From Calditrichia bacterium (lineage in GTDB: Bacteria; Calditrichota; Calditrichia; RBG-13-44-9; J075), in the NCBI GenBank assembly GCA_050633245.1, contig JBOEGD010000025.1:1-42106 (forward strand): a stretch of 42,106 nucleotides of DNA, read 5' to 3'. Both the position numbers and the translations under genes were made by a program. This document shows positions 23,501 to 39,206 of the stretch, piece after piece (position 1 is the stretch's first letter; every line of letters begins with the position of its first letter). Below the pieces are notes generated by a model. The model made no database searches. It worked only from the letters and a program-made list of their open reading frames with translations, and had not been told where the DNA came from.

Positions 23501-23701
23501 ATTGGATAGGTCAATGTCTTTAACCTTGGCCGAGCTTTTGGCAATGTCATCAACGACGCCCGAGAGCACCTTGCCCTCTTTTTGCGCTTGCTTGATGGTT
23601 TTAAGATAGTTCTGGGTATCTCCGATAGTCTTGGCGAAAGCGCGGCTTTCATCGGTGATAAAAGAGATATCTATCTGTACCTGATCTCTACGTACTGCCA
23701 T
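20582..23701 (-). CDS. Tape measure protein
   Basis: 1039 aa, Ala/Gln/Glu-rich coiled coil with a TMP core. C-terminal FARGG...GGRSHSQGG motif typical of Bacteroidota TMPs. Confidence 0.88.
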   Translation of the reverse strand: MAVRRDQVQIDISFITDESRAFAKTIGDTQNYLKTIKQAQKEGKVLSGVVDDIAKSSAKVKDIDLSNLTKGQLVSRARQLQQILKLIPESAPQFKVLANELQGVNSQLLSINKQTKGVVDAANDMRSRAGRAFSALGSIANKALGVFGGISLANLSSQVIDYGKQLFQTGVAQDAFARKTETVFEDAQSIVEGFAKQTAADLGLTEQQYINLATAAGDILVPMRFQREEAAEISSEIVNLSGALSEWTGGQKTAEEVTSTLIKALTGEREELKSLGIVISEEDVKRRLQLKGLEKVTGAAREQARAMATLELITEKSADAQANFGENSDSNVRRLARLRARITEISERIATLLIPAFERLISVAESVTGFFDDVADSVSSLVDPAGAASDAFQEQSEKVDDLQRGLSPLLERYDELNTKTNLNAAEQEELKSVMQQIGEIVPTAVTQFDEYGKTIGISADKVRDFVAAQQLLLQQRNSEAIDENTSALGRYQKQLEDVNKALNNFDSEGNLVRTQQFNTTAGVVSQQFQLTGEEIKRLQADAERLQKQIQTTNDAVGILSGTFETGTAAPANDPQNDAITKPTLTPQEIEKAGQERKKALEKAFKLQLETINNSAEIEQIIVDRALLQKEVSESEHGKRLLEIEREQYEAQLVLFDQFNKDKGVEAEAARNRIIEINQSLTQQSFAPLEEIGASSLGGVERRDINVELEQINSDEDRKLSLLREKFVQGILLEQEYDVLRLESKQLALEQEIALLQQGSDAEIQEASRKQEELLKVEEELSNARIQNAEREKEAKRSISDAIISTTQDALSVGIDLLSADVAARKKNAGFIKTFETGKVIAAGIKEVQDVWATAAQFGPILGPIIGGVRTAVAAARTAAAVRKISKTKFARGGSPKVGTFGGRSHSQGGTRGVFDDGTQIEVEKDENFYILNKNSSRAIRSLSAFNQAGGGVPLMRNGGSVYFQNGGVADINTNPTGISVASASSGGTAPDLSPLLEQVQTLSQAIATMPRTLKAKVVYDDYQEVEADVDTVREASSIS

Positions 23702-26274: not shown

Positions 26275-26436
26275 CTTTTTTTTGTAAAGATGTGCGCCTT
26301 TTATTGGGGGTGGTAGGACGGGGTTGGGGGTTAAAAAGGTGCTCGTCTTTCCGAGCCGTCAGGTTAATACTTTCCCCGTATTTATCCGCTATGTTTCCTA
26401 AGCTTCGAATCAACGCTACGGGTCGCGCGGCGGTCC

Positions 26437-26718
26437 TTATCCGTGTTCGTTCCGCAAGCCACCTAGCACGGATGGCGATTTCTTTGGGGGTGTTTTTATG
26501 TCGCTCATTTTTGGGGTTAGTTTAATAATTCTGCATAATCCAGATTTATCCATGTACCTCAGAGGGTTTTCATCTACGGCCTTATTGGCTGCTTCTCTCG
26601 CCTCTTCATCTGTCTGGAATTTAAGAGCAGATTCTATTTTCTTTGTTCTGCCCGGATCACCCTCCCAGTCAGCAAGGTAGTAAGGGTCACCTCTATTTAG
26701 GAATTTTACTACATACAT
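26437..26718 (-). CDS. Hypothetical cassette protein
   Basis: 93 aa with a W.GDPGRT motif. Confidence 0.65.
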   Translation of the reverse strand: MYVVKFLNRGDPYYLADWEGDPGRTKKIESALKFQTDEEAREAANKAVDENPLRYMDKSGLCRIIKLTPKMSDIKTPPKKSPSVLGGLRNEHG

Positions 26719-26744
26719 ATTTTTGGTCTATTTTTCGAAATGGT

Positions 26745-27068
26745 TTAATCTTTGTTTCGGTCGTAACATTCAACCATCGCAACGGCTACAGCCGCCACTT
26801 GAATTAGTTCTTTTCTATAGTCCTCTAGGTGCAGACTCTTTGATAGTTCTGTTTTAGCGGGAAACTCCCCGTGATTATAAGCACACCCAAAATGCGCCTC
26901 TAGTGCTGCTTTGTTCACTTCTCCGACCTCTTCACCAAGAATAGCACAGTACTCAATTGGTAAATGGTTCTGAACACCCCATTTTTCATCTTGTCTCGAT
27001 CTTTCTTTTGCAACTTCATCCAATACCTTAGAGGTGTCTAAATATTTGAATTCTTCTTCCTTATCCAT
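26745..27068 (-). CDS. MazG-like nucleotide pyrophosphohydrolase
   Basis: ERSRQDEKWG, ILGEEVGEV and KELIQVAAVA (EExxE...ExxQ) motifs. Likely start MDKEEE at 27068. Confidence 0.75.
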   Translation of the reverse strand: MDKEEEFKYLDTSKVLDEVAKERSRQDEKWGVQNHLPIEYCAILGEEVGEVNKAALEAHFGCAYNHGEFPAKTELSKSLHLEDYRKELIQVAAVAVAMVECYDRNKD

Positions 27069-27090
27069 AATAAGTGTCGAATTTTCGAAA

Positions 27091-27342
27091 TTATAAAATG
27101 TGTGTGTAGTCACTTTGTCTTTCAATATCTTCTGAAGTATATCCACCTGCTGAGCACCATTCACATTGCCCATCAATTAAGTCTTTATGAGGGCCAGTTT
27201 TGCAAGATCTACACACATCGGTATCTATCCCTAAATAACCTTTCACTTGTTCAACATCTTGCTTCCTCTCCTCTCCTTGCTCCGAGGCCCAAGAATCAAT
27301 AACTCGCCTTATTGCGTTAGCTGCTGCTTTTTCTCCATTCAT
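27091..27342 (-). CDS. Hypothetical protein with CxxC...CxxC
   Basis: 83 aa; CRSC and CEWC. Confidence 0.6.
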   Translation of the reverse strand: MNGEKAAANAIRRVIDSWASEQGEERKQDVEQVKGYLGIDTDVCRSCKTGPHKDLIDGQCEWCSAGGYTSEDIERQSDYTHIL

Positions 27343-27362
27343 GGCTTTAATTTTTTGGTGGT

Positions 27363-27644
27363 TTATTTACAGTTGTTTAAAATCAATAAAATTGCCGCCT
27401 GAAATCCAGCGGTAAAATGCTTTTCAGCCTCTCCCTTGATCTTTTCCGACTTGATCGGCTTATCGTTTTCAACAAAGTTTTCCTTATAGGACTCTAATGC
27501 CTCATCAAGTTTTTTGTCGTTCGGAATTAGATTCCAAACTAGATCAATAAACTTGGATTTGCTAACTGCCATTTCGGATAAGCAATCCTTAGTTGTACAT
27601 GTATAGCAATCAAAGTTGTTATCAAAGTATTGGTCTATGCGCAT
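27363..27644 (-). CDS. Hypothetical cassette protein
   Basis: 93 aa, bounded by junction sites. Confidence 0.6.
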   Translation of the reverse strand: MRIDQYFDNNFDCYTCTTKDCLSEMAVSKSKFIDLVWNLIPNDKKLDEALESYKENFVENDKPIKSEKIKGEAEKHFTAGFQAAILLILNNCK

Positions 27645-27650
27645 GGGTGG

Positions 27651-27926
27651 TTAAATTGAAAGATTTTGAAAGATTATAGATTCGTTTATTTCGCCACCTT
27701 CGGCTATACTTATTAGCAAGCTAATAGGTATATGATCATGATTACTTGATTCGGGCGTAAATCCAAAACCGTCCCCTTTTAGGTGGTCTACATGGCCAGC
27801 TACACATATAGTTTCTGTAATTACACTAGACAGGTTTCCCATCGTAGCCACAAATCTACCTTCGGCGGCTACAGCTTGTTTATATGCTCTTTTGATTTTT
27901 TGGACTTCTCTTTTAGATAATAACAT
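27651..27926 (-). CDS. Hypothetical cassette protein
   Basis: 91 aa, bounded by junction sites. Confidence 0.6.
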   Translation of the reverse strand: MLLSKREVQKIKRAYKQAVAAEGRFVATMGNLSSVITETICVAGHVDHLKGDGFGFTPESSNHDHIPISLLISIAEGGEINESIIFQNLSI

Positions 27927-27956
27927 AACTGTCGTTTAAATAAGGTTTAAAAATGT

Positions 27957-28265
27957 GGGGCCAACTTGCTACTAGCTTCCTCTTTCAATTGTTGAATTAG
28001 TTACACCTGGCTGCATTGTTTCGCGTTTCTAGATTACGGAACAACCGCTTTTTACCCCTTACCTCTTTCTTATTTTACATTGCAATTACTCTGAGTCCAT
28101 CCTTGCAAAGTGCCCCGCGAGTTATAAGCTCCTGGTCAGGCTAAGAAACGGAGTGGCGAGTTTTCTAGAATCCTCAAGCAACGTTGGATTCAAACCTAGA
28201 TAGCCGCTAAGCCCTTCGGATTATGCCCTCCATCAACAATCTAATCAATTCGGCCAGTTGGCCCC
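27957..28265 (-). ncRNA. Candidate ~310-nt structured RNA occupying a whole cassette
   Basis: Perfect 10-bp terminal stem GGGGCCAACT/AGTTGGCCCC with a nested ATTGTTGA/TCAACAAT helix; no ORF of 60 aa or more. Strand is inferred from the array orientation. Confidence 0.5.
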
Positions 28266-28318
28266 TTTCGTGTTGGTTATCTTAAGCCCCTACTTTTAGG
28301 GGTCGAATTTTCGAAAAG

Positions 28319-28495
28319 TTAAAAAAACCATTTTTTATGTTCTGTCGAATAAAATGGAAGTTCAGATGATAGCCCTTTTTTACTTCTCCTTACCATCCTT
28401 CGCCATGCTCTCTCGTTCCACTTTTCACCGACTATGGATTTTATTTGTTTTTTAGTGAACCCCTCTTTCCCCAAGGATTTTATTGCTTCTTCCAT
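28319..28495 (-). CDS. Small basic cassette protein (58 aa, MEEAIKSLGK...)
   Basis: Translated by eye; bounded by junction sites at 28301 and 28498. Confidence 0.55.
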   Translation of the reverse strand: MEEAIKSLGKEGFTKKQIKSIVGEKWNERAWRRMVRRSKKGLSSELPFYSTEHKKWFF

Positions 28496-28515
28496 ACCGT
28501 CTATTTTTCGAAAAG

Positions 28516-29022
28516 TTAAGAATTTTGATCGCCTAACGCTGCCACACCCGAATCCATCACGCCATTAACAACAACCATTGACGGAGCATAACCAGATTTT
28601 ATTGTCGCTAACCATTGGTCATAACTTGCGGTCATTCCTGCAAAAGCTGAAGCGTTGTTATCAACCAACCATTGCGCCAACTCTTCAGATGATTTCATTG
28701 GGGGGCTAATTGGTGATCCCTCAGAAGTATTTTCATACATTTGAAAGTGAGTCCTTTCGGATTCATCCCAATCGGGCATATAATCTTCTTTTTCCGGCCT
28801 TGCACCTTCCCACTCTTCCCATGAGTCGCCCCTGTATTCATTTTCTATTTCTATAATTCCGGCACCATATTTATTGCGCTTCCCCTTTAACCAAAGCGCC
28901 TTTCCTTCTTCCCATTCCTGAAGCCGATCACTAAAGCTGCCGCCAAGTAATGGCTGGTATCTTCCATTGTCTCTTTTTGGATGCTCCCAATTAGCGGGAA
29001 CCATTCTTAGTTCTCTTCCCAT
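28516..29022 (-). CDS. Phage hypothetical protein (Trp-rich)
   Basis: 168 aa; MGRELRMVP.NW.HP and QMYENTSEGSPISP motifs. Confidence 0.75.
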   Translation of the reverse strand: MGRELRMVPANWEHPKRDNGRYQPLLGGSFSDRLQEWEEGKALWLKGKRNKYGAGIIEIENEYRGDSWEEWEGARPEKEDYMPDWDESERTHFQMYENTSEGSPISPPMKSSEELAQWLVDNNASAFAGMTASYDQWLATIKSGYAPSMVVVNGVMDSGVAALGDQNS

Positions 29023-29041
29023 GATTTAAAATTTTGGTCGT

Positions 29042-29125
29042 TTATTTTGGTTCTTTATAGTCGCCAGCGTCATCTAACGCCTTTGCGATTAAATAAGCTA
29101 TTCCAATTGTTATTGCTCCAAGCAT
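29042..29125 (-). CDS. Micro-protein (27 aa, single hydrophobic helix)
   Basis: MLGAITIGIAYLIAKALDDAGDYKEPK fills the unit between two junction sites. Confidence 0.45.
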   Translation of the reverse strand: MLGAITIGIAYLIAKALDDAGDYKEPK

Positions 29126-29144
29126 TACTTTATGATTTTGGTCC

Positions 29145-29399
29145 TTATTGCGAAACCTCAAAGGCTTCTGGTTTTTTAAATAAAACATCTTTGTTCTGCT
29201 CTATAAAAAAAGCAACCGACGACTTGTCTTTACCTTCCATGCATTTCGGACATATGTCCAAAATCCTGCGACCCAAACGGAAAGAGTACCAACCTAAAAC
29301 ACTTAAGACAAGATGCCTACTTTGACGTATAGAATGCGCAGGGGATGCAACTTGAACTTTACTACACCAGTCACATTTTACCGCTTTGAAATATGCCAT
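29145..29399 (-). CDS. Zinc-finger-like cassette protein
   Basis: 84 aa; CDWC ... GW ... CPKC. Confidence 0.65.
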   Translation of the reverse strand: MAYFKAVKCDWCSKVQVASPAHSIRQSRHLVLSVLGWYSFRLGRRILDICPKCMEGKDKSSVAFFIEQNKDVLFKKPEAFEVSQ

Positions 29400-29426
29400 A
29401 ATTATTGTCGAATTTTCGAAAGTGAA

Positions 29427-29780
29427 TTAATGTTGATTATGGATGTATGCTTCTGTCGGGTCTTCATATAATTCTGAGCTTAATTTGCTAGTAAGTTGTG
29501 ACCAAACAAGACTTAACACGAAAACAAGATGTTGTTCCTGTTCTTCGCTTTTCAATCCAACATTCAATGCTATAGATTCAGGAGTCCTTTCAACAAGGAA
29601 TGACTTAAGTCGAGGCCAACAAGCATCAAAATATCGATGAGCTACTACCTTGTGAGTGGCAATAACAAGTCGGCCCTCATTTCGGGCTGTTTCCTCAATG
29701 TATATATTTACAAATCCGTGCCCATCCTGCACGGTGAATCTATATAGGTCGACTTTTCTAGTTTCAAGATTAAATTCCAT
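29427..29780 (-). CDS. Hypothetical cassette protein
   Basis: 117 aa, bounded by junction sites. Confidence 0.6.
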   Translation of the reverse strand: MEFNLETRKVDLYRFTVQDGHGFVNIYIEETARNEGRLVIATHKVVAHRYFDACWPRLKSFLVERTPESIALNVGLKSEEQEQHLVFVLSLVWSQLTSKLSSELYEDPTEAYIHNQH

Positions 29781-29812
29781 CTCTTTATTTTTTGGTCGTT
29801 ATTTTGGTGTTA

Positions 29813-29881
29813 AAAAATAGCCCCGTTAGCATATTTATACCGCCTCGCATTAGTGGGGCCAAACTCTCGCTTTGGCGGTGC
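29813..29881 (-). ncRNA. SAM-II-like H-type pseudoknot followed by a U-tract
   Basis: P1 ACCGCC/GGCGGT, P2 GGCCCC/GGGGCT, linker ATAAAT-AT-GCTAA. Confidence 0.35.
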
Positions 29882-29886
29882 TTTAG

Positions 29887-30051
29887 TTAGTAGTTAACAT
29901 TTCGGTTCTTATACCTCTCGACTAAAACTATAATCAAGAAGGCAAGAAAAGTAAACGGCGCAATCATTGGGAAAGGTGTTCTTGATTCTCCACTAAGGAA
30001 GGCCCACCCAAAGACTGATCCAGCCGTTAGTATTAATAGGAAATCCTTCAT
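29887..30051 (-). CDS. Small two-TM membrane protein (54 aa, MKDFLLILTAG...)
   Basis: Translated by eye; two hydrophobic segments. Confidence 0.55.
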   Translation of the reverse strand: MKDFLLILTAGSVFGWAFLSGESRTPFPMIAPFTFLAFLIIVLVERYKNRNVNY

Positions 30052-30062
30052 TGATCGGTCGT

Positions 30063-30503
30063 TTATTTGAGGTGTTTAAGAAATTGAAAAAACAATTCTA
30101 ATTCTGGATTTCTAAAGGCGTGAGTAAGGAATGTTTTAGGTTCTGAATAGTGATAGTGATTTAACTCTATATGCCTCTTAATTGCTTTCTCGCTAAAGAA
30201 TGCGTTTTTATAGACGTATTCATCCTTGTAATAGACCTTATGGAATTTATCTTCATCGAAGTCCTCTTCCACTGCATCTGGGTGGTAGGTTTCTTCACCA
30301 TCATGATTACTTACCCAAATAAAAAGGTCTGCATAATCATCATCCATTCCGTATATTCTTTTTTTCTCCATAATTTGGAAAAAATAAGGGGGTGCGGTTG
30401 CCCTATTATCTTGGGTTTCTACTTCCTTAGCAATAGTCTTGAGTTTTTCATAAACATCAATTGGTAATTCTATTGATACTGTTTTGACCAATGTATCTTC
30501 CAT
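30063..30503 (-). CDS. Phage hypothetical protein
   Basis: 146 aa; TQDNRATA.P.F and HIELNHYHY.EP motifs. Confidence 0.7.
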   Translation of the reverse strand: MEDTLVKTVSIELPIDVYEKLKTIAKEVETQDNRATAPPYFFQIMEKKRIYGMDDDYADLFIWVSNHDGEETYHPDAVEEDFDEDKFHKVYYKDEYVYKNAFFSEKAIKRHIELNHYHYSEPKTFLTHAFRNPELELFFQFLKHLK

Positions 30504-30551
30504 AATAAGAGTGGTATTTTTGAAAAGTTAAGAACAATAATCCGTACATAC

Positions 30552-30614
30552 ACCTAACAACAGCTATATGTCCATATTCCTATCGTCATACGGCACATAG
30601 CCAAACCATTAGGC
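30552..30614 (-). other. Integron attC-like site
   Basis: Minus strand GCCTAAT-ggtttggctatgtgccgtat...atatggacatatagctgtt-GTTAGGT: a 63-bp imperfect palindrome just after a stop codon, ending in GTTRRRY. Confidence 0.6.
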
Positions 30615-30621
30615 ACAATAA

Positions 30622-30884
30622 TTAAAGATACAGATGCGCCAGAATAACCAATGAAAACAAGCCTAATACTACAATCCACACGGGCAAAGCAATAAATAAT
30701 ACCTCAAAAAAAGTAATAGGCTCTGTATATGCGTTTTCATTTTCAAAATTAGAATTGTAGTATTTAGCCGCCCCTATTGAGCGGGCAAAACTCATGCGCA
30801 TAATGTCTCCCGCAAGAATTTTTCTTCTGAAATCAAATACAACAAAGTCAGTTCCTAAAAATCTAGTTATGGTAAATAGTTTCA
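30622..30884 (-). CDS. Hypothetical protein with a C-terminal TM helix
   Basis: Likely start MKLFT, overlapping the upstream stop (ATGA); start coordinate approximate. Confidence 0.55.
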
Positions 30885-31190
30885 TGTTGATGATTTTGGG
30901 TTGCAATCAATTTCTATACTATCCAAATATTCTTTGATTTTTAGGCTACGTTGAAGTGTGGGGTTGTTATCCTGTTGCCCATCATCAAAGGAAACTTCTA
31001 CACCCTCACTACTCCACCAAGAAAAGTAAAACACATGTATGCTTGTGCTTGAATCCAACCTATAAGCATCAGGAAGGACGGGGTGCGGTTCAGACATGAT
31101 CCATTTTCTTCTTTTGGTAAAAGATATTGGACTTACTATTTTTGCAATATGCTCGAACTCTTCCTTTGTTATTGTTCTTGGATACCTCAT
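30882..31190 (-). CDS. Hypothetical cassette protein
   Basis: Likely start MRYPRT at 31190, right after the junction site at 31196. Confidence 0.6.
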   Translation of the reverse strand: MRYPRTITKEEFEHIAKIVSPISFTKRRKWIMSEPHPVLPDAYRLDSSTSIHVFYFSWWSSEGVEVSFDDGQQDNNPTLQRSLKIKEYLDSIEIDCNPKSST

Positions 31191-31209
31191 TGATCGGTCC
31201 TTTTTTTTA

Positions 31210-31788
31210 CTACTCCCACCCAAGGCGAGTAGCTGTGTTTTTAAATATGCTGCAAATCTGTTCGCTGATTTCAAACCGATCTTTGTTTATTTCAATTGAT
31301 TTGTAAATATTTCCATCAGCATGGCGTTCAGTTGCCGCTTTCCAATCAAAAAACATTTCTATTAGATCAAATAAGTCAAATCCATTTATTCCGTTCTCGT
31401 AATGCTCAGGGTGATGACTATTATTTGCGTAATGATGATCAGTAGCAACCTTTAACTGCCTGAAGTATTTATTATACTCTTCACTTCCATAACTTAACCC
31501 TTTTAGCTTTGGTGTGAATTCATCAAATAGCTCCTTTTCTGGGCTTTCTAACTTAGAGTCATCATGACAATTAGCCCGTTTAATTAATTCACTAGAGGCA
31601 TTCGTGAGAAGCTCCGAGACTCGCCTGATGTGTTTTAGGGTGTCTGCTTCACTATCATATACTGTTGCCCCGATTTTCCTAGCTGTAAATGCTAAATTTT
31701 GCAAATATGTCTCTTCTGAAATGCCCCCCATTTTATAATCTAAAGACATTGAAATCAACATTTCTGCGTATTGTTTAATATCACTCAT
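31210..31788 (-). CDS. HD-domain phosphohydrolase-like protein (DUF5662-like)
   Basis: H...HDDSK, HHY..NSHHPEHY and EMFFDW motifs. Confidence 0.75.
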   Translation of the reverse strand: MSDIKQYAEMLISMSLDYKMGGISEETYLQNLAFTARKIGATVYDSEADTLKHIRRVSELLTNASSELIKRANCHDDSKLESPEKELFDEFTPKLKGLSYGSEEYNKYFRQLKVATDHHYANNSHHPEHYENGINGFDLFDLIEMFFDWKAATERHADGNIYKSIEINKDRFEISEQICSIFKNTATRLGWE

Positions 31789-31800
31789 TTGGTGGTTTCT

Positions 31801-31968
31801 TTACTCCTCATCGGTGAGGAGTGAATTATAAAATATACACCATCCACATTCAAAGCACATGCGTTCCTCACCTTCATGCCATTTTTCTTTCATTGGGCAA
31901 TCAGTTTCGAAGTTCCAGTCTGAGCAAGGAAAATCTTCATCGTCGTGAACTTCGATTAGCGTTGGCAT
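31801..31968 (-). CDS. Small acidic Cys-rich protein (55 aa, MPTLIEVHDD...)
   Basis: Translated by eye; bounded by junction sites. Confidence 0.55.
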   Translation of the reverse strand: MPTLIEVHDDEDFPCSDWNFETDCPMKEKWHEGEERMCFECGWCIFYNSLLTDEE

Positions 31969-32007
31969 GGGAATGGTCGTTATTGCGAAGCCTCGGAGGC
32001 TTCCGGT

Positions 32008-32214
32008 TTAGTAGTGAATTCTGGTTACTAAGAATTTTTCTGTGCAATTCTCGCACTCCAACTCTGCTTTGCAAGAATCTGTACTTAATGAGTATCTGTC
32101 AAAATACTCTTTTAACTCTTCTATTCGGTCTTGAGCAGAAGAGCAGTGAGGGCACTCAACCCAGACATTTAGATGCGTTTCTGCTGTTGTCTTTTTTATG
32201 GTTTCAGTTGCCAT
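32008..32214 (-). CDS. Zinc-ribbon protein
   Basis: 68 aa; CPHC ... CENC. Confidence 0.65.
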   Translation of the reverse strand: MATETIKKTTAETHLNVWVECPHCSSAQDRIEELKEYFDRYSLSTDSCKAELECENCTEKFLVTRIHY

Positions 32215-32222
32215 GATTTTGG

Positions 32223-32450
32223 TCAGTTTTGCGAAACTTCCGCTTCGGTGTTTTGAATTATTTCTAATATCTCAGATAGATACAACTGAAGGGCTTCTAA
32301 TTCTAAGGGTTGCAACGGTAATTCATGGCCAAACTCTTTAATGTCAGTCCAATGGGTTGGACTATTTATATCGTTAGTTTTCATCCAAAACTCAACCTGT
32401 TGTTTGACATATTTTAAAACCCTTAGCTGTGTTGTTGTGGGTTGTGGCAT
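32223..32450 (-). CDS. Hypothetical cassette protein
   Basis: 75 aa, bounded by junction sites. Confidence 0.6.
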   Translation of the reverse strand: MPQPTTTQLRVLKYVKQQVEFWMKTNDINSPTHWTDIKEFGHELPLQPLELEALQLYLSEILEIIQNTEAEVSQN

Positions 32451-32491
32451 GATTTGGTCAATTTTTCGAAATGATTAAATATGTAATACAC

Positions 32492-32671
32492 TTAGGAAGA
32501 AGGAAGAGACTTAAGCAAAACTGGGTCAATCTCATTTAGCAAGTCTGAAAGAGCCGCATGTTTCCCCTTGTCGTACCCCTCTCTAAATGTTGGCTTGTCA
32601 AAGTCGTGTAAATTTTTTCTCAACTTTTTTATCCTAGTAACTAGGTATTTCTTGATTTCTGAATCACTCAT
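32492..32671 (-). CDS. Small cassette protein (59 aa, MSDSEIKKYL...)
   Basis: Translated by eye; contains an EGYDKG motif. Confidence 0.55.
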   Translation of the reverse strand: MSDSEIKKYLVTRIKKLRKNLHDFDKPTFREGYDKGKHAALSDLLNEIDPVLLKSLPSS

Positions 32672-32695
32672 AATTACTGTCGTTTTTATGATTGA

Positions 32696-33043
32696 TTAAA
32701 ATGGTAAGTACACAAATTCAATGCGGGTACATAAATCGGTGGGCTTACATTTATTAGCCTTGCAATACAGTTGTATAAATTGATCGGTAGTCCAATCTGG
32801 AAAACCTTCTCTTACTACATCCTCTTTTGTAATTGCACTAATAGGCTCTCTGCTTACAGCCTTTACATGAAGCACATCTCGGCCTATCACCTTCTGCTTT
32901 TCTCCTTTCTTCAGCCCCATGCACTTTTCAACAGGTCGAATGCTGTCGAACTCCTTCAAGAATAGCCATCCTTTTCGGCGGGTTACAGTTTTAGTCTGGT
33001 TTAATATTTGGTTGGTTGTTAGAGCAAATGACATCCGTCTCAT
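32696..33043 (-). CDS. ASCH-domain protein
   Basis: MSF..T...ILNQTKTVTRR, ITKEDVVREGF and RIEF motifs. Confidence 0.75.
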   Translation of the reverse strand: MRRMSFALTTNQILNQTKTVTRRKGWLFLKEFDSIRPVEKCMGLKKGEKQKVIGRDVLHVKAVSREPISAITKEDVVREGFPDWTTDQFIQLYCKANKCKPTDLCTRIEFVYLPF

Positions 33044-33088
33044 GATCTATATTTTTTTTGATTTAATAATCTTCCTCCAATTCTTCCT

Positions 33089-33331
33089 CTAGTTTTGTTC
33101 ATCACATTCCTCTTCCATCGCTTCCTCTTCTAATTCCTCGGCCAATTCTCGTTTTTCCTGCCAAGACAATTGACTGGCTAACATGTTTACCAATGAAGGA
33201 TAATCCTCTTTGTCTACTTCAAGAAATAGATTTCCCTCTTTATGATTAAACTCAATGATTCTTTGACCTGCTGGAATTCTCATTGTTGATACTGATCGGC
33301 GGGTTGCCGTAGATATATTTAATCTTTCCAT
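33089..33331 (-). CDS. Hypothetical acidic protein
   Basis: 80 aa; first gene after the recombinase. Confidence 0.6.
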   Translation of the reverse strand: MERLNISTATRRSVSTMRIPAGQRIIEFNHKEGNLFLEVDKEDYPSLVNMLASQLSWQEKRELAEELEEEAMEEECDEQN

Positions 33332-33441
33332 GATTTTCGATTTAACGACCAGTTAGTTTATTACCTCTGAATTTCGAATAAATATACCAACCGGCCTATG
33401 ATGTTTCGTTAAAATATTTTAATAAATGATTTCACTTTACC

Positions 33442-34038
33442 TTATGTCGGAGCCTTTATTTGGTGTTCATTTGTCGACCATTTAAGGTATTTGTAGAAAG
33501 TGCTGGTAGACTTCACATCTAAGGCTTTCATGATTTCTCTAACAGACATTGCATCTGATGAATGAAGCTTAAAAATAGCGCGGGCCTTTTTCTTTGCTTC
33601 ATCACTTAATCCTTTTGGCCTACCCCCTATTCGCCCTTTTTTTCTTGCTTCTGCTAATCCCGCTTTAGTCCGTTCAGATATTAAATCTCTTTCTAGTTGG
33701 GCAAATGCGGCGATGATAGTGTAAAACATTCGACTCATTGCAGAATCATTGATGGTTAATCCATCTGTTATACTGTGGAAGCTAATTCCTTCTTTCAGCC
33801 AAAACTCCATTAAGTCAATTAGCTGTTTTACGGAACGACCTAACCTATCTAGCTTCCATACTATCACTGTGTCGCCTTCTCTTAAATGCATTATCATGCT
33901 ATCAAACTCCTTTCTTTGTTTTGCTACTCCAGAAACTTTCTCTTGAAATATTCGTGTGCAACCGAAGTTGTTTAATGCTTCAATTTGGAGGTCAAGGTTT
34001 TGATCCTCTGTTGAAACCCTTGCATAGCCTATTTTCAT
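33442..34038 (-). CDS. Small serine recombinase (resolvase/invertase family) with C-terminal HTH
   Basis: GYARVST.DQ (catalytic Ser), VWKLDRLGRS, ER.LISERTKAGL, GRIGGRP and a C-terminal HTH. Confidence 0.95.
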   Translation of the reverse strand: MKIGYARVSTEDQNLDLQIEALNNFGCTRIFQEKVSGVAKQRKEFDSMIMHLREGDTVIVWKLDRLGRSVKQLIDLMEFWLKEGISFHSITDGLTINDSAMSRMFYTIIAAFAQLERDLISERTKAGLAEARKKGRIGGRPKGLSDEAKKKARAIFKLHSSDAMSVREIMKALDVKSTSTFYKYLKWSTNEHQIKAPT

Positions 34039-34096
34039 CTCGCCTATTTTTATTAAGAAATAGGCTTAGTTGCTTTTGGATTTAAAGAAGAGGAAT

Positions 34097-34228
34097 TTAT
34101 TTCAAATCCCGACAATCCCCACACTTCAACGTAAATTCTTCAGGCAATTCATCTACCTGATTCACTTGCTTTGGAGTAGCACAGCTAAACATTGTAGCCG
34201 TGATAAGTATTGCTAAAATCCGTTTCAT
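34097..34228 (-). CDS. Small lipoprotein (43 aa, MKRILAILITATMFSC...)
   Basis: Translated by eye; signal peptide ending in FS|C. Confidence 0.5.
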   Translation of the reverse strand: MKRILAILITATMFSCATPKQVNQVDELPEEFTLKCGDCRDLK

Positions 34229-34253: not shown

Positions 34254-34281
34254 AAAAAAGCCCAGGCCCAGAGCGGCCTGG
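34254..34281 (-). terminator. Intrinsic terminator after the replication gene
   Basis: CCCAGGCC/GGCCTGGG stem plus T7 on the minus strand. Confidence 0.7.
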
Positions 34282-34378
34282 GAATAACTCATAATCTCGA
34301 AAAAACATAGTCAATTGTAATCTTAATCTTGACGAACGATATAGTATAGTCCTACTACAGTTATTATTTTCCAAATCA

Positions 34379-35845
34379 TTATTCGGGGTGTTTTCTTTCG
34401 TACTTTGATCGGCCTAGTTGCTGGAATAGATCTACCTTTGCATTGCGTAGATACCTGTAAACTGTGCTTGAGCTCATATTACACTCTTTGCCGACCTTAA
34501 GCGCCATGTCTGTCGTGATGACCTCCTCCATGGGTAGCGTAATGTACCAAATCTTATGCTTGTCGGGTAGTTGCTCCACTGGCGATTGTAGGCGATTGAC
34601 TACTCGTAAGGCTGTTGTTTTAAAGTAGTTTACGACCTCAATGGCGCGGAACACTGACAACTCGCCGATTTCCCATTTCTCGACATCTTCGGGGAGGATC
34701 TCCTCTTTGTTGGATGGCCAATCTATCGCCCTTTGCATGATTTCCATAATCAAGGCGAATCTAAGGCAATAGGAATCAAACTTACCTAGCATTCCGTCTA
34801 TAACTTCATCTTCGGCGGCGTTGATCTCATCTACATTCTTATTGTAGAATTTTACATACACATCCTCGGCGGCCTTGCTTAGCTTCAAGGGGATGCTGGT
34901 TACATTCCAACTTCCTAGCTCGTCCCCTGGTTCTATAAACTCATTGGGTAGGCTGTCAATCCAATTGACTACATACTCCCACCATTGCAAATCATTGGGG
35001 TCGGGACGAGTCTTGGAGTAATACTTCTTTTTTACATTTTCAGGGTAAGCGAATAAAAGGCGGGCGAGGAACCCATCCACTTCTTTACCATCATCGACTA
35101 GCTTTTTTATCACAGCGGGTTGAATTGTTCCAATCACGCTACAAGATGGCTTTTCGACAAACGTCACGCCTCGCCCTACCCTATTCACCTTGACCAAACT
35201 ATTAGACCAGTTTTCCAAATAAAAACTCTCATCACCACCTTTACCGCCGTTGTACTTGTTCATCGATTGCACCCAGCCTTTTAGCTCATCTCTATAAAGT
35301 AATATGCCGCGAGGGTTTGCTTCCATAATACGGACTATTTCCTCGGTGGTGGCATCATTAATGAGAATTTGCTGCATACTCGGTGCATCTTCCTCGAGTC
35401 CTTCCTCTAGCACTTGCTTGTGTGCTCTCATTTTATCCTCATGCTCTCGGCGGTATCTCTTCTCAATCTCAAATAATGGGCGCAACATCATTTTAACTGC
35501 TGGCGTTTTACCGATTGACGGCTTACCCACGATAACGGAGTACAATATCGGGGCATGCTTCCCTCCTCTCGGCTCATCGACTACATAGGCATTACCCAGC
35601 AAAGACCCTGCGACGGTCAAAACAGTAGTTCCAAAATACTCGGCGGGCATACCATAGCACTTACTAAAACTCATAATCATAGAGCCAATCCTTTCTGGAA
35701 AAGCCTGTATAGGAAATTTTACTACTGTTCTAAGTTCGTACTTATCAATGCGAGTCTTGGCCTCTCTTAGCAACTTTTCTACATTGAAAGTTGCCTTCTC
35801 TGTCATCGTGTCGATGTCTTTTAAAATCGCCTGTGATTTAGTCAT
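34379..35845 (-). CDS. DUF3987 (YfjI-like) P-loop ATPase, putative replication helicase/initiator, with C-terminal wHTH
   Basis: FP...FP, GKPSIGKTP, DATTE, RDEL, GTIQP and DGFLARLL motifs. Confidence 0.82.
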   Translation of the reverse strand: MTKSQAILKDIDTMTEKATFNVEKLLREAKTRIDKYELRTVVKFPIQAFPERIGSMIMSFSKCYGMPAEYFGTTVLTVAGSLLGNAYVVDEPRGGKHAPILYSVIVGKPSIGKTPAVKMMLRPLFEIEKRYRREHEDKMRAHKQVLEEGLEEDAPSMQQILINDATTEEIVRIMEANPRGILLYRDELKGWVQSMNKYNGGKGGDESFYLENWSNSLVKVNRVGRGVTFVEKPSCSVIGTIQPAVIKKLVDDGKEVDGFLARLLFAYPENVKKKYYSKTRPDPNDLQWWEYVVNWIDSLPNEFIEPGDELGSWNVTSIPLKLSKAAEDVYVKFYNKNVDEINAAEDEVIDGMLGKFDSYCLRFALIMEIMQRAIDWPSNKEEILPEDVEKWEIGELSVFRAIEVVNYFKTTALRVVNRLQSPVEQLPDKHKIWYITLPMEEVITTDMALKVGKECNMSSSTVYRYLRNAKVDLFQQLGRSKYERKHPE

Positions 35846-35884
35846 TATCCCCTTTATTTATTCGTGGTTATAGTCTATCTAAAA

Positions 35885-36205
35885 CTAGACTGCTGTTACT
35901 TCCTCATAGTCAATATATTCACACTCTGATATATTTACCACCTCTGACGAGTAAGAGCACATCATGTAAACTGCATCCGAAAAGCCGCAACACTTGCTGT
36001 ATTTACTCCCTACACTATAAGAATCTAATACTCCTTTAATTACAAAAGCGGTATTAAACTGCGGGTCGGTTTGGCGAAGCAATACAGCCCCAATAGAAAT
36101 ACGATCTACAAAATCAACACTACATACAAAACCCAATCTATCTTGATCTTGAAACATGTGCATTATTGGATGAGCATTTCCATATAAATATCCTTGCTTT
36201 TTCAT
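35885..36205 (-). CDS. Hypothetical protein
   Basis: 106 aa ORF in the early operon. Confidence 0.55.
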   Translation of the reverse strand: MKKQGYLYGNAHPIMHMFQDQDRLGFVCSVDFVDRISIGAVLLRQTDPQFNTAFVIKGVLDSYSVGSKYSKCCGFSDAVYMMCSYSSEVVNISECEYIDYEEVTAV

Positions 36206-36216
36206 TTCTTTCTTTT

Positions 36217-36573
36217 TTAATAGAGGTTTGGAAAATCTTTTCTTGCCGATTCAATAGTATCATACCTACAGCCTTCTTTATCGAAGAACCGTTGATGAGT
36301 TAGAGACACAGCGCCAGAGTTTCTCTTTTCCAACTCTCTCCCCTTCTTTACTCCAGCGCTGTATGCCTCACTCCTATCATGTTCCAGTTCTGTCAATGCT
36401 TGCCCGGCGATCTTCACAAAGTCTACCAAACTAGATAGCCGTTCATGTTGTATCGCCAAGTATTTTGTATTATGGTCGGGCTTGGCCTCGTATCGCTCTA
36501 TGCTCTCTTTCATGTGACCCAAAGCCCGCACCGCGTTCTCGTATTTTTCTTGAAATACTATTAAGCCGTACAT
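36217..36573 (-). CDS. Hypothetical protein
   Basis: 118 aa ORF in the early operon. Confidence 0.6.
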   Translation of the reverse strand: MYGLIVFQEKYENAVRALGHMKESIERYEAKPDHNTKYLAIQHERLSSLVDFVKIAGQALTELEHDRSEAYSAGVKKGRELEKRNSGAVSLTHQRFFDKEGCRYDTIESARKDFPNLY

Positions 36574-38654: not shown

Positions 38655-38761
38655 GTGAAAATTGCACACTATATGTTTGTGATTATCACACTTAATTTAT
38701 ATTTGTGTTGCATTTTGCACTACAAACATAGGGTATGTTTTTGAAACTTGCAATTTTTTCA
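38655..38761. promoter_or_regulatory. Lysis/lysogeny switch region with face-to-face promoters
   Basis: Plus strand TTTG (38676) and TATATTTG (38698-38705); minus strand TATGTTTG (38723-38730). TGAAAATTGCA / TGCAATTTTTTCA form an imperfect inverted pair. Confidence 0.6.
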
Positions 38762-38795
38762 CTCTTTTAGATTAAAAAAAATACACTTTTTTAGA

Positions 38796-39206
38796 ATGAA
38801 CACATATATACATCTGAATATCAAGACCTTAAGAAATGGGGCTAATTTTAGCCAAACTAAGTTTGGTAAGCTCTTAAGTAAAGCGAAAGAAACAATTGCT
38901 AGTTATGAATCGGGCAGGGCAGAGCCAAACATCCAATCGCTTCTTATCCTAAGTGACTATTTCCAAATATCAATAGACGATTTAATTAGGGCCGACATTA
39001 GTAAATGGGAAGAGATACCCACGATAGGGGAGGGAGGCAAGATATTGATGATCTCGCCACCACAACCTAAGACAAAAGCTTTTTCAGCAGAAGCGGAGAG
39101 GGGGCTGCATGTGAGATTGATAGAGCAAATGGAAAGAAGGATTAAGGAATTAGAGCATATTATAAGGCAGAATTGCCCCCAGGTCGCCGATAAACTTGGT
39201 ATTTAA
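38796..39206 (+). CDS. XRE-family HTH repressor
   Basis: NIKTLR...SQTKFG....TIASYESGRAEP....L..LSDYF.ISIDDL. Likely start ATG 38796; no S24 peptidase domain visible. Confidence 0.88.
   Translation: MNTYIHLNIKTLRNGANFSQTKFGKLLSKAKETIASYESGRAEPNIQSLLILSDYFQISIDDLIRADISKWEEIPTIGEGGKILMISPPQPKTKAFSAEAERGLHVRLIEQMERRIKELEHIIRQNCPQVADKLGI

What the first reader, a model, noticed from the sequence alone, without database searches (positions are those of the whole stretch)
26432..34038. Serine-recombinase-associated, integron-like gene cassette array (top candidate for a new system)
Seen: downstream of the small serine recombinase, about 20 co-oriented units of 0.1-0.7 kb are separated by one 16-bp site. 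Plus-strand examples: GGTCTATTTTTCGAAA 26725, TGTCGAATTTTCGAAA 27075 and 29406, GGTGGTTAAATTGAAA 27646, GGTCGAATTTTCGAAA 28301, CGTCTATTTTTCGAAA 28498, GGTCCTTATTGCGAAA 29140, GGTCGTTATTGCGAAG 31975, GGTCAGTTTTGCGAAA 32221, GGTCAATTTTTCGAAA 32456. Ten weaker copies exist, which I identified partly by their GT, so they are less independent evidence. On the coding strand each site reads as a ~13-bp arm (TTTCGAAAA...) at or over the upstream stop codon, an invariant AC, then the next ATG 2-15 nt later, most often at exactly 7 nt. At that spacing the ATG aligns with the TCG of a mirrored arm. I did not see the motif at gene junctions outside this block. Known: Hin/Gin-type serine recombinases act on ~26-bp pseudo-palindromes with 12-bp arms and need an identical central dinucleotide. 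Integron cassette arrays use tyrosine integrases and folded attC sites. Inference: the recombinase captures, excises or reorders minimal promoterless cassettes at hix-like sites, a serine-recombinase analogue of an integron on a phage. An alternative is that the sites are operators or translation signals.
Basis: partly seen in the sequence, partly recalled or inferred. Interest (0 to 1): 0.93.

Follow-up and report, generated by a model that had tools for sequence, protein, structure and literature searches.

The report
Start-linked repeat in phage ORFan array
A 16-letter one-way DNA signal sits just before the start of nearly every small gene in one block of a phage-like element, and relatives swap these genes at or beside it; it looks more like a gene-expression signal than a recombinase target.

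Summary
The repeat is real. On the coding (minus) strand there are 9 copies of an asymmetric 16-nt element (TTTCGMAAWWNNGACV type). About 10 degenerate copies keep only its A-rich ...[CG]AC[CA] end. They lie 1-14 nt (mode 6) upstream of the ATG of 18 of 21 small ORFs and before one 374-nt non-coding unit, all between 26.4 and 33.3 kb, downstream of a Gin-like serine recombinase. Nine of the 14 best matrix hits in the 6.35-Mb genome lie here, on one strand.

The sites are not hix-like. No centre gives dyad symmetry (at most 4.8 of 12 arm matches, against 3.0 at random). Most junctions do not fold.

Contigs from four public runs show close relatives that keep the recombinase-helicase backbone but carry different arrays. 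Similarity breaks at or beside the junctions, repeatedly at 33335, and gene order differs.

The anatomy matches the start-associated sequences of Cluster K mycobacteriophages (function still unknown), L5-type stoperators and T4 PeSL cassettes better than any recombinase site.

Best reading (0.45): an orientation-dependent expression signal that marks the 5' end of each ORFan module and also acts as a recombination hotspot. Recombinase-driven cassette exchange is not excluded (about 0.12).

The parts
33442..34038 (-). Small serine recombinase, 198 aa, Gin/Hin-like, catalytic N-terminal domain plus C-terminal HTH
   Evidence: Pfam Resolvase 4.6e-44 and HTH_7 6.5e-4. The best solved relatives are the DNA-invertase chains 4m6f and 3uj3. 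Conserved S9, R7, D64, R65 and R68 in the alignment with 7 viral relatives.
33335..33350 (+). Single motif copy in the opposite orientation, between the recombinase gene and the first ORF; boundary between conserved backbone and variable array
   Evidence: TTTCGATTTAACGACC on the + strand. 36-nt inverted similarity to the 27646 junction (I1). The X3 contig starts matching at 33335 after 867 unlike letters; X1 joints 28300->33335 and 33061->33335.
33364..33378 (-). Possible degenerate direct copy inside the 110-nt spacer after the recombinase gene
   Evidence: Seen by eye only in the sequence (TTCGAAATTCAGAGG). Not scored.
32456..32471 (-). Strong motif copy, 5 nt before the ATG of the 75-aa ORF
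   Evidence: 23.4 bits.
32221..32236 (-). Strong motif copy. It contains the TGA stop of the upstream ORF, is preceded by a hairpin, and lies 6 nt before the ATG of the 68-aa zinc-ribbon-like ORF
   Evidence: 20.8 bits. Hairpin read.
31975..31990 (-). Strong motif copy preceded by a 7-bp-stem hairpin, 6 nt before the ATG of the 55-aa ORF
   Evidence: 18.6 bits. 36-nt repeat D7. Fold z = -2.17.
29406..29421 (-). Strong motif copy, 6 nt before the ATG of the 84-aa ORF
   Evidence: 21.9 bits. The X2 contig starts matching at 29407 after 126 unlike letters.
29140..29155 (-). Strong motif copy. It contains the TAA stop of the upstream ORF, has a hairpin upstream, and lies 14 nt before the ATG of a 27-aa ORF
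   Evidence: 19.2 bits. Repeats D4/D7. Loose ends at 29176.
28498..28513 (-). Strong motif copy, 2 nt before the ATG of the 58-aa ORF
   Evidence: 21.2 bits.
28301..28316 (-). Strong motif copy followed by a non-coding unit, not an ORF
   Evidence: Exact match; 23.5 bits. Joint 28300->33335 in X1.
27927..28300 (-). 374-nt non-coding unit that behaves as a cassette
   Evidence: No minus-strand ORF of 25 aa or more. No Rfam match. Fold no more stable than shuffles, z = +1.15. An X1 contig holds it with 13 listed differences in another context. No other copy in the genome or in GenBank phages.
27075..27090 (-). Strong motif copy abutting the upstream TAA, 6 nt before the ATG of the 107-aa ORF
   Evidence: 21.9 bits. 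The X2 contig starts matching at 27066 after 140 unlike letters.
26725..26740 (-). Strong motif copy, 6 nt before the ATG of the last ORF (93 aa)
   Evidence: 23.4 bits. X3 has a 36-nt junction-only match at 26731-26766.
27357..32688 (-). Ten degenerate copies that keep the A-rich tract and [CG]AC[CAT]. On the coding strand they end at 32678, 31791, 31196, 30510, 30057, 29794, 29036, 27930, 27646 and 27357
   Evidence: Anchored by me on AC. Profile. Extended similarity families D1, D2, D5, D10, D11 and D20 of 17-31 nt. 11-nt matrix ranks (the matrix was built from these sites, so this is circular).
26437..33331 (-). Array of 21 co-oriented small ORFs (27-192 aa) plus the non-coding unit, mostly ORFans
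   Evidence: ORF list. 4 of 21 have any family hit, all of unknown function: DUF5662, phrog_5602, phrog_3205, phrog_2831; the 93-aa and 27-aa ORFs were not both run through Pfam.
34261..34282 (-). Terminator-like hairpin with T-run that closes the helicase operon upstream of the unit holding the recombinase and array
34379..35845 (-). Primase/helicase (DUF3987 type), part of the backbone shared with relatives
   Evidence: phrog_2373 8e-45. Relatives at 88%, 53% and 49% identity. Contigs of X1-X4 cover it.

Best explanation
The 16-nt element is a start-associated cis-acting expression signal that belongs to the 5' end of each small accessory gene of this temperate, phage-like element.

It is an asymmetric two-block site. 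TTTCG and GAC(C) are separated by an A-rich tract, with the block centres about one helical turn apart. It is read in one orientation.

I think it most likely works on DNA. It would be the binding site of a phage-encoded sequence-specific protein that gates transcription through or into each unit of the long operon that starts after the terminator at 34261. This would resemble the operators and stoperators of L5-type phages, or a phage-specific promoter that gives very short leaders.

Every module carries the same 16-36 nt junction. The junctions therefore also act as patches of short homology, or as the only viable break points, at which modules are lost, gained and reordered among co-circulating relatives. 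PeSL cassettes play this role in T4-type phages.

Shown here: the motif, its enrichment, its orientation, its tight link to starts, its presence before a non-coding unit, and array differences between relatives with break points at or beside junctions.

Inferred: that a protein binds it, that it acts on transcription rather than translation, and how the exchange happens.
For: - Enrichment and single orientation.
- A tight link to the next ATG: spacers of 1-14 nt, with 6 nt in 7 of 18 sites. The distance to the upstream stop varies.
- All 21 ORFs start with ATG.
- The information profile shows two conserved blocks with no symmetric partner.
- One strong copy precedes a 374-nt non-coding unit, so the signal is not needed only for translation.
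- Two motif-like elements lie in the 110-nt spacer that heads the array.
- The motif is imposed on coding sequence: two unrelated ORFs end ...EVSQ(N)* inside it.
- Hairpin plus motif moves together with the downstream gene (break points 29176 and 32249).
- The anatomy matches published start-associated sequences point by point. Those are 13 bp, asymmetric, 11-19 copies, confined to the non-structural half, 3-7 bp before mostly ATG starts, with a single opposite-strand copy, and rare in the host (PMC3203893 passages).
- It also matches stoperators: asymmetric, intergenic, orientation tied to transcription (PMC9283540 passages).
- Another viral contig (L040) has 5 copies of its own 17-nt start-associated motif in the same kind of region.
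Against: - No RNA data: no RNA holder was listed.
- No candidate binding protein, sigma factor or RNA polymerase was identified. The only DNA-binding domains found are the HTH_3 repressor-like protein at 38748-39206 and the recombinase HTH.
- No motif copy lies at the repressor/early-promoter region. No matrix hit of 10 bits or more lies above 36430. This differs from the L5 system.
- The motif does not match the recalled host-type promoter consensus, and sigma-70-like sites are not enriched (29 found, 35.8 expected).
- The junctions are short for homologous recombination (16-36 nt).
- The repeated, exact backbone boundary at 33335 in several contexts is what a site-specific event would also give.
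- The function of the closest analogue (SAS) is itself unknown.
Confidence: 0.45

Rival explanations
1. RNA-level signal. The element acts in the mRNA as a translation-initiation or re-initiation enhancer, or as the site of a phage RNA-binding protein or endoribonuclease. That factor would set the 5' end or the translation of each cistron of the polycistronic transcript.
For: - It sits where a ribosome-binding site would be, and orientation is strict.
- All starts are ATG.
- The array ORFs show no Shine-Dalgarno-like run (by eye). A crude survey of 1377 long host ORFs shows G enrichment at -12 to -7 and an SD-like 4-mer in 45%.
- The authors of the SAS paper favoured a role in translation (PMC3203893 passage).
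Against: - One strong copy precedes a non-coding unit with no ATG within 14 nt.
- Most phage ORFs outside the block also lack SD-like runs and still lack the motif (by eye), so the motif is not a general substitute.
- I saw no complementarity to the 3' end of a same-family 16S rRNA (read by eye; the window's own assembly has no 16S).
- The junction RNA/DNA is not unusually structured.
Confidence: 0.2
2. The Gin-like serine recombinase uses the site next to its gene (33335-33350) and the junction sites to capture, excise or reorder promoterless cassettes. This would be a serine-recombinase analogue of an integron.
For: - An intact recombinase lies directly upstream.
- A single oppositely oriented copy lies between it and the first cassette.
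- In contigs of relatives the backbone ends at 33335 in several contexts: the window itself, the X3 contig, and X1 joints to 28300 and to 33061. One further joint ends at 33347 and one piece at 33333.
- Gene order differs between relatives. Examples are the 102-aa gene followed by the 68-aa gene in X2, and the 54-aa gene after the 118-aa gene at 36218 with its own junction of the weak type in X1.
- A non-coding unit is carried like a cassette.
- By recall, the left block plus A-tract resembles the layout of invertase half-sites (major-groove block plus A-tract). This was not tested.
Against: - There is no dyad symmetry at any centre: best 4.8 of 12 arm matches, 3.0 at random. A dimer-binding crossover site is the defining feature of this enzyme class.
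- Half of the junctions keep only the 3' part of the motif.
- The positions where a Hin-like geometry would place the crossover vary between copies.
- By recall, invertases need inverted sites in cis, yet 18 or 19 copies are direct.
- No strand-changing joint is among the 15 listed (8 more were not shown).
- Break points are not at one nucleotide: 29176, 32249 and 33096 lie upstream of the motif, 27066 at the ATG, and 26489 and 27553 inside genes.
- Most joints have short sides (21-30 letters) at 80% likeness, and the tool itself flags these as unreliable.
- The tight 1-14 nt coupling to the ATG needs an extra explanation.
- 0 of 72 helicase-related loci hold such a recombinase, so no co-variation test was possible.
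Confidence: 0.12
3. Recombination scars or junction copies without a function of their own. The junctions look alike because units were duplicated or copied together with their flanks. The recombinase has an unrelated job, such as inverting a segment flanked by the 17-bp inverted repeat at 30947/34117, or resolving multimers.
For: - Junctions fall into sub-families with 17-36 nt of extended similarity reaching into the spacer, the first codons or the end of the upstream ORF (D1, D2, D4/D7, D5, D9, D10, D11, D20).
- A perfect 17-bp inverted repeat brackets the recombinase gene.
Against: - The flanking ORFs are unrelated while the motif is kept, also in relatives (junction-only matches of 36-37 nt in X3 and X2). 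This argues for selection on the motif.
- Orientation and distance to the ATG are too regular for scars.
- An inverted repeat of 17 nt or more arises in 13 of 60 shuffles of the window.
Confidence: 0.08

Closest known systems
Start-associated sequences (SAS/ESAS) of Cluster K mycobacteriophages (Pope et al. 2011, PMC3203893; passages read; follow-up PMC12699233, passages)
   Same: A short asymmetric repeat with roughly 10-20 copies. It is confined to the non-structural part of a temperate siphovirus genome and lies a few nt upstream of mostly ATG starts. It has one orientation plus a single opposite copy, is rare in the host genome, and sits in front of unrelated small genes. About a third to a half of copies have extra upstream elements. 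The function is unknown in both cases.
   Different: The sequence is unrelated. SAS contains the AGGAG Shine-Dalgarno core, and this motif has none. The host phylum differs (Bacteroidota-like, against Actinobacteria). Here half of the copies are degenerate, one copy precedes a non-coding unit, and close relatives differ in array content at the junctions.
Stoperators/operators of Cluster A mycobacteriophages (L5 gp71-type repressor; PMC9283540, passages read)
   Same: Asymmetric sites in short intergenic spaces, often at stop/start codons. Orientation is tied to the direction of transcription, with many copies per genome. A monomer with two DNA-binding domains explains an asymmetric two-block site.
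   Different: L5 sites occur across the genome and also at the early lytic promoter. Here they are confined to one block, and none was found near the repressor-like gene. No stoperator-type repressor was identified.
PeSL mobile regulatory cassettes of T4-type phages (Arbiol et al. 2010, PMC2839356, abstract and sections 13 and 16 read; Comeau et al. 2014, PMC4122927, abstract only)
   Same: Repeated junction elements immediately upstream of ORFans in hyperplastic regions. Insertions, deletions and replacements between close relatives occur at these elements. Cassettes move together with their own expression signal and need no dedicated site-specific recombinase.
   Different: PeSLs are about 100 bp, with a sigma-70-type promoter, an AT-rich region, a stem-loop terminator and an SD. 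Here the junctions are 16-36 nt, sigma-70-like sites are not enriched, and only 3 of 19 junctions fold well. Mini-circles could not be looked for.
Integrons (tyrosine IntI, attI, folded attC; recalled, plus titles and abstracts listed)
   Same: A recombinase gene followed by a fixed proximal boundary and an array of co-oriented, mostly promoterless cassettes of unknown function. The array varies between close relatives, and starts lie close to the cassette boundary.
   Different: The neighbouring enzyme is a serine recombinase. The sites are 16 nt, unfolded and asymmetric. No evidence shows that the enzyme acts on them.
Invertase crossover sites of the Gin/Hin/Cin/Min group (recalled)
   Same: The enzyme family. 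An AT-rich tract flanked by a conserved block.
   Different: There are no inverted half-sites. Nearly all copies are in direct orientation. No invertible segment was shown.

Membership tests
Small serine recombinase crossover site (hix/gix/res site I type) | A cognate small serine recombinase with catalytic serine is encoded nearby | tested here: met
   Resolvase domain 4.6e-44. Gin chains are the best solved relatives. S9 is invariant in the alignment.
Small serine recombinase crossover site (hix/gix/res site I type) | The site is a pseudo-palindrome: two inverted half-sites of about 12 bp around a 2-bp core | tested here: not met
   Scan of 26 possible centres: best mean is 4.8 of 12 matches for the 9 strong copies and 4.6 for the 10 weak ones. 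Random positions give 3.0, sd 1.5.
Small serine recombinase crossover site (hix/gix/res site I type) | Partner sites share an identical central dinucleotide, and products are joined there | tested here: inconclusive
   AC is invariant, but partly because I anchored on it. Break points in relatives fall at both motif edges, in the spacer, at the ATG or upstream of the hairpin. The alignment cannot place them inside a shared motif.
Small serine recombinase crossover site (hix/gix/res site I type) | For invertases: two sites in inverted orientation flank the segment, and inversion isomers exist | tested here: inconclusive
   One opposite copy lies at 33335-33350 against 18-19 direct copies. No strand-changing joint is among the 15 listed, 8 were not shown, and only contigs were available, not reads.
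Integron | IntI-type tyrosine recombinase next to the array | tested here: not met
   The adjacent gene is a serine recombinase. The only tyrosine integrase (39684-40718, phrog_1 1e-30) lies about 6 kb away on the other strand.
Integron | attC sites: imperfect palindromes that fold as single-stranded hairpins at each cassette end | tested here: not met
   60-nt junction windows folded as DNA: z of -2 or below in 3 of 19, and MFE weaker than -3.3 kcal/mol in 11 of 19.
Integron | Array of co-oriented cassettes that differs between close relatives, starting at a fixed proximal site | tested here: met
   21 ORFs on one strand. The backbone is shared, the array differs, and the boundary is at 33335 in several contigs (contigs only, short joint sides).
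Start-associated sequences (Cluster K mycobacteriophages) | Short asymmetric repeat, many copies, non-structural half only, a few nt before (mostly ATG) starts, one orientation, rare in the host | tested here: met
   compared with the description in PMC3203893.
Start-associated sequences (Cluster K mycobacteriophages) | Matches the consensus GGGATAGGAGCCC, which includes the SD core (as printed in PMC3203893) | tested here: not met
   The motif here is TTTCGAAAAWTNGACC-like, with no AGGAG. It is an analogue, not a member.
Stoperators (Cluster A mycobacteriophages) | The same site also serves as operator at the early lytic promoter and is bound by the immunity repressor | tested here: not met
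   No matrix hit of 10 bits or more lies between 36430 and 42106, where the HTH_3 repressor-like gene is. Binding is not testable here.
PeSL regulatory cassettes (T4-type phages) | Composite of a sigma-70-like promoter and a stem-loop terminator, about 100 bp | tested here: not met
   Promoter-like sites: 29 found against 35.8 expected in 25.5-40 kb. Junctions are 10-40 nt. Stable hairpins occur at 3 of 19.
PeSL regulatory cassettes (T4-type phages) | Sits upstream of ORFans, and indels or replacements between close relatives occur at the elements | tested here: met
   ORFan cargo. Break points at or beside junctions.

The most novel reading that the evidence does not exclude
This would be a serine-recombinase gene-cassette platform on a temperate phage. 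A Gin-family enzyme, a proximal site at 33335-33350 and asymmetric 16-nt sites at each junction together would allow ORFan cassettes, and one non-coding cassette, to be captured, lost and reordered. The same site would supply each cassette's expression signal. The several array variants seen on one backbone in public runs would then be the products of that system.
Probability: 0.12. Interest if true: 0.9.

Novelty: new variant of a known kind. Interest (0 to 1): 0.55.

Why it matters
Start-associated repeats are so far described for actinobacteriophages, and their function is still open after 15 years. An unrelated example in a Bacteroidota-type host, without a Shine-Dalgarno core and also placed before a non-coding unit, narrows the possible mechanisms. 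It argues against simple rRNA pairing.

The comparison with relatives adds that these junctions are where ORFan modules are exchanged on an otherwise near-identical backbone. That makes the block a natural system for studying how phages turn over accessory genes.

If the neighbouring recombinase proves to be responsible, this would be a new class of cassette platform.

Tried and rejected
Searches for complete relatives that found none usable:
- Megablast of 26-36 kb against GenBank phages: no match.
- DNA search in the family (16 genomes): only a 37-nt hit.
- Helicase protein in viral and genome contigs: none.
- Helicase in the order (37 genomes): none.
- Backbone DNA in the class (86 genomes): none.
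- Helicase alignment scans gave 28 metagenome, 2 genome and 80 viral loci. Only the helicase is shared (tblastx). The closest, L046 (87%), is 2.1 kb.
- The exact 15-mer in viral contigs gave 25 loci with one copy each and no clusters.
- The matrix found no clusters in 119 related loci, 1.5 Mb.

Ideas tested and dropped:
- Host-type promoter. A short recalled Bacteroidota promoter consensus is only weakly enriched upstream of host ORFs and does not fit the junctions (by eye).
- rRNA pairing. The window's assembly has no 16S gene. The 3' end of a same-family 16S shows no evident complement (by eye).
- The palindrome before the recombinase ATG as a full site whose half equals the motif. Its halves do not reach 8 bits with the 11-nt matrix.
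- A second pair of hix-like palindromes. There are 27 candidates and one similar pair (6063/32613, 20 of 26). I judged this to be chance.
- The 17-bp inverted repeat: not significant on its own.
- The TGTGCCAA repeats in L074/L075 are clustered, iteron-like repeats, not start-associated.
- A crude 6-mer test for start-associated motifs in 72 helicase-related loci lacks power. The window itself reaches only 8e-6.

Sequencing runs: no RNA holder was listed. Parts of the array without cover are not used as evidence, and neither are depths.

Supplements of the papers were not opened; the SAS site tables in them might refine the comparison.

Literature on novelty: two listings only. No title or abstract listed describes a serine-recombinase-linked cassette array on a phage, or a start-associated repeat in a Bacteroidota phage. 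This is a narrow search, not proof of absence.

Full report
**Setting.**
The window is a whole 42,106-bp contig (C25) of a 6.35-Mb, 59-contig assembly. Its ends do not overlap. Nearly all genes are on the minus strand. The contig has these features:
- a terminase large subunit (52-1506);
- a weak tape-measure-like hit (20582-23701);
- a tyrosine integrase on the plus strand (39684-40718);
- an HTH_3 repressor-like gene (38748-39206);
- a DUF3987-type primase/helicase (34379-35845);
- a 198-aa serine recombinase (33442-34038).

The recombinase's best solved relatives are the Gin invertase chains (4e-42). Gamma-delta resolvase scores 4e-30. Names attached to helicase relatives point to Saprospiraceae MAGs. 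I therefore treat the host as Bacteroidota-like.

**The observation.**
0.42 are expected, and 0 of 100 shuffles reach 6.
- A degenerate form occurs 11 times in the whole genome, 8 of them in this block. The reversed control gives 3.
- A 16-nt matrix from the 9 strong copies places 9 of the 14 best genome-wide hits in 26.7-32.5 kb. Leave-one-out scores are 14.9-22.4 bits.
- Of the five outside hits, only one has an ATG within 14 nt.
- On the coding strand the element reads TTTCG, an A-rich tract, then nGAC(C).
- Ten further junctions keep only the A-rich tract and [CG]AC[CAT]. I anchored these on AC myself, so they are weaker evidence.
- As an independent check, [GC]AC[CA] occurs within 20 nt of the start in 16 of 21 block ORFs and in 7 of 32 ORFs elsewhere in the window. 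The background is 0.20.
- The spacer to the ATG is 6 nt in 7 of 18 sites, 5 in 3, 1-3 in 4 and 13-14 in 4.
- The distance to the upstream stop varies from inside the motif to about 100 nt. The element is therefore start-associated, not stop-associated.
- One strong copy (28301) precedes a 374-nt stretch with no ORF of 25 aa or more on that strand.
- One copy lies in the opposite orientation at 33335-33350, between the recombinase gene and the first ORF.

**Are they recombinase sites?**
The defining feature of crossover sites of small serine recombinases is a dimer-binding pseudo-palindrome.
- I scanned 26 possible centres. Random positions give 3.0. This feature is not met.
- The junctions do not fold like attC sites either. 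z is -2 or below in 3 of 19, and 11 of 19 have an MFE weaker than -3.3 kcal/mol.
- All copies but one are direct.
- The 17-bp perfect inverted repeat that brackets the recombinase gene (30947/34117) is not significant on its own. Repeats of 17 nt or more arise in 13 of 60 shuffles.

**Relatives.**
No complete relative could be fetched. Contigs of four coded public runs were laid on 24-38 kb at 80% likeness or more. They show the following:
- The recombinase-helicase backbone is present at high identity in runs labelled with three different organisms. Examples are an X3 contig covering 33335-34352 with 11 differences and an X4 contig covering 33581-34564 with 11.
- The X3 contig matches only from 33335 onward, after 867 unlike letters.
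- In X1 the same boundary is joined to the non-coding unit (28300->33335, 7 letters between).
- It is also joined to the 115-aa gene, with the 80-aa gene missing (33061->33335, side 42).
- A further joint links 33347 to the motif of the 68-aa gene (side 22).
- The 54-aa gene also occurs directly after the 118-aa gene at 36218, preceded by 19 letters that form a junction of the weak type (side 30).
- In X2 the 102-aa gene is followed by the hairpin, motif and 68-aa gene (32249 joined to 30884). Gene order therefore differs, not only content.
- Break points at true piece ends lie at 29407 (motif edge), 27066 (the ATG), 32694 (the upstream stop) and 33333.
- Junction-only matches of 36-37 nt, flanked by unlike sequence, occur in X3 and X2.

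Against a single crossover point:
- 29176 and 32249 lie upstream of the hairpin plus motif.
- 33096 lies 53 nt upstream of a start.
- 26489 and 27553 lie inside genes.

Caveats: these are contigs, not reads. Most joints have sides of 21-30 letters, which the tool flags. Eight joints and 127 loose ends were not shown. An alignment cannot place a break inside a motif that both partners share. I did not use depth as evidence.

**Internal structure of the junctions.**
The junctions fall into sub-families with 17-36 nt of extended similarity. This similarity reaches into the spacer and first codons (D2, D5, D11) or into the end of the upstream ORF (D1, D7, D10). Two unrelated ORFs end inside the motif with the same residues. 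Selection therefore acts on the nucleotide sequence of the junction, and junction sequences have been copied between units.

**Comparison with known systems.**
- The anatomy agrees point by point with the start-associated sequences of Cluster K mycobacteriophages. Those are 13 bp, asymmetric and present in 11-19 copies. They are confined to the non-structural half and lie 3-7 bp before mostly ATG starts. They have one orientation with a single opposite copy, are almost absent from the host, and about half carry upstream extensions. Their function is unknown (PMC3203893, passages). It is still described as needing experimental verification in 2025 (PMC12699233, passages).
- The sequence here is unrelated and lacks the SD core. 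It is an analogue, not a member.
- L5-type stoperators share the asymmetry, the intergenic position and the orientation rule (PMC9283540, passages). Their site is also the operator of the early promoter, and I found no copy near the repressor-like gene.
- PeSL cassettes of T4-type phages are the known case of repeated junction elements that flank ORFans and mediate module exchange without a dedicated recombinase (PMC2839356, abstract and sections 13 and 16). They are about 100 bp and contain sigma-70 promoters and terminators. Neither is enriched here.
- Another viral contig (L040) has a serine recombinase 42% identical to this one. It carries five copies of its own 17-nt, SD-containing start-associated motif directly downstream of that gene. 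This shows that such arrays recur. Seven recombinase loci were screened for repeats and eight for junction sequences, with no control set, so no association can be claimed.
- None of the 72 helicase-related loci of 9 kb or more holds such a recombinase.

**Verdict.**
The cassette-like behaviour of the units is supported by relatives. The hix-like nature of the sites and the role of the recombinase are not supported.

I favour an orientation-dependent expression signal acting on DNA (0.45). The junctions would double as exchange points. An RNA-level signal (0.20), recombinase-driven exchange (0.12) and functionless junction copies (0.08) remain as rivals. The rest is unassigned.

The cargo is almost entirely ORFans. 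4 of 21 ORFs have a family hit, all of unknown function.

Noticed in passing
window 27927-28300 (-): A 374-nt non-coding unit sits inside the array. It begins with a 6-bp-stem hairpin right after the motif, and a 10-nt stretch near its 5' end is complementary to one near its 3' end (read). It has no Rfam match, folds no better than shuffles (z +1.15), and has no other copy in the genome or in GenBank phages. An X1 contig holds it with 13 listed differences, 11 of them transitions, in another context. It may be an RNA gene or a DNA element.
   Followed up: partly
window 30947-30963 and 34117-34133: A perfect 17-bp inverted repeat brackets the recombinase gene and the first eight units (3153 nt between the arms). 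Both arms lie in ORFs. After an inversion the 43-aa ORF would read on into a 29-codon alternative end on the plus strand (my reading). Repeats this long arise in 13 of 60 shuffles. An X1 contig spans exactly 33365-34105, 30 nt inside both 33335 and 34135, which may reflect assembly branch points.
   Followed up: partly
window 34041-34066: A 24-26-bp palindrome (9 of 12 arm matches, centre at 34053) ends 3 nt before the recombinase ATG. It is a candidate operator or true recombinase site. Its halves resemble the 3' part of the motif by eye but do not score with the matrix.
   Followed up: partly
window 34097-34228 (-): A 43-aa ORF with a lipoprotein-like signal sequence lies directly after a strong terminator (34261-34282) and before the recombinase gene. 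It has no Pfam hit.
   Followed up: no
window 35871-36306: This segment, which holds the 106-aa ORF 35885-36205, is absent or replaced in relatives: L046 and contigs of X1 and X3 (joint 35854->36307; pieces 35003-35870 plus 36307-36506). The break at 36307 lies inside the 118-aa ORF, not at a motif.
   Followed up: partly
L040:10563-12614: A viral contig from a higher-GC host has a serine recombinase (10001-10531) followed by five copies of a 17-nt motif ending in an SD core, 5-9 nt before ATG or GTG starts.
   Followed up: partly
L043:11390-13731 and L044:11380-14700: Arrays of small ORFs lie downstream of serine recombinases, with overlapping stop/start and a conserved ATGAGC or ATGACG start. 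L044 and L043 also carry 3-6 copies of a hairpin-containing repeat upstream of the recombinase.
   Followed up: no
L074:11913-12185 and L075:11426-11621: Clusters of TGTGCCAA-type repeats, iteron-like, lie downstream of the helicase homologue in two Saprospiraceae MAG loci.
   Followed up: no
window 31210-31788 (-): The DUF5662 ORF has homologues at 41-58% identity in phages of Bacillus, Lysinibacillus, Rhizobium, Mammaliicoccus and Microcoleus. It is a widely travelling accessory gene.
   Followed up: no
G000, all contigs but C25: A crude survey of 1377 long ORFs shows G enrichment at -12 to -7 and an SD-like 4-mer in 45%. Most ORFs of this element show A-rich upstream regions with no such run (by eye).
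   Followed up: partly
window, 13 places on both strands (e.g. 35646, 23014, 3096): The 8-mer CCGCCGAG and its neighbour occur 9 and 7 times (0.3 expected). As far as I looked they lie inside ORFs, as Ala-Ala-Glu-type codons.
   Followed up: no
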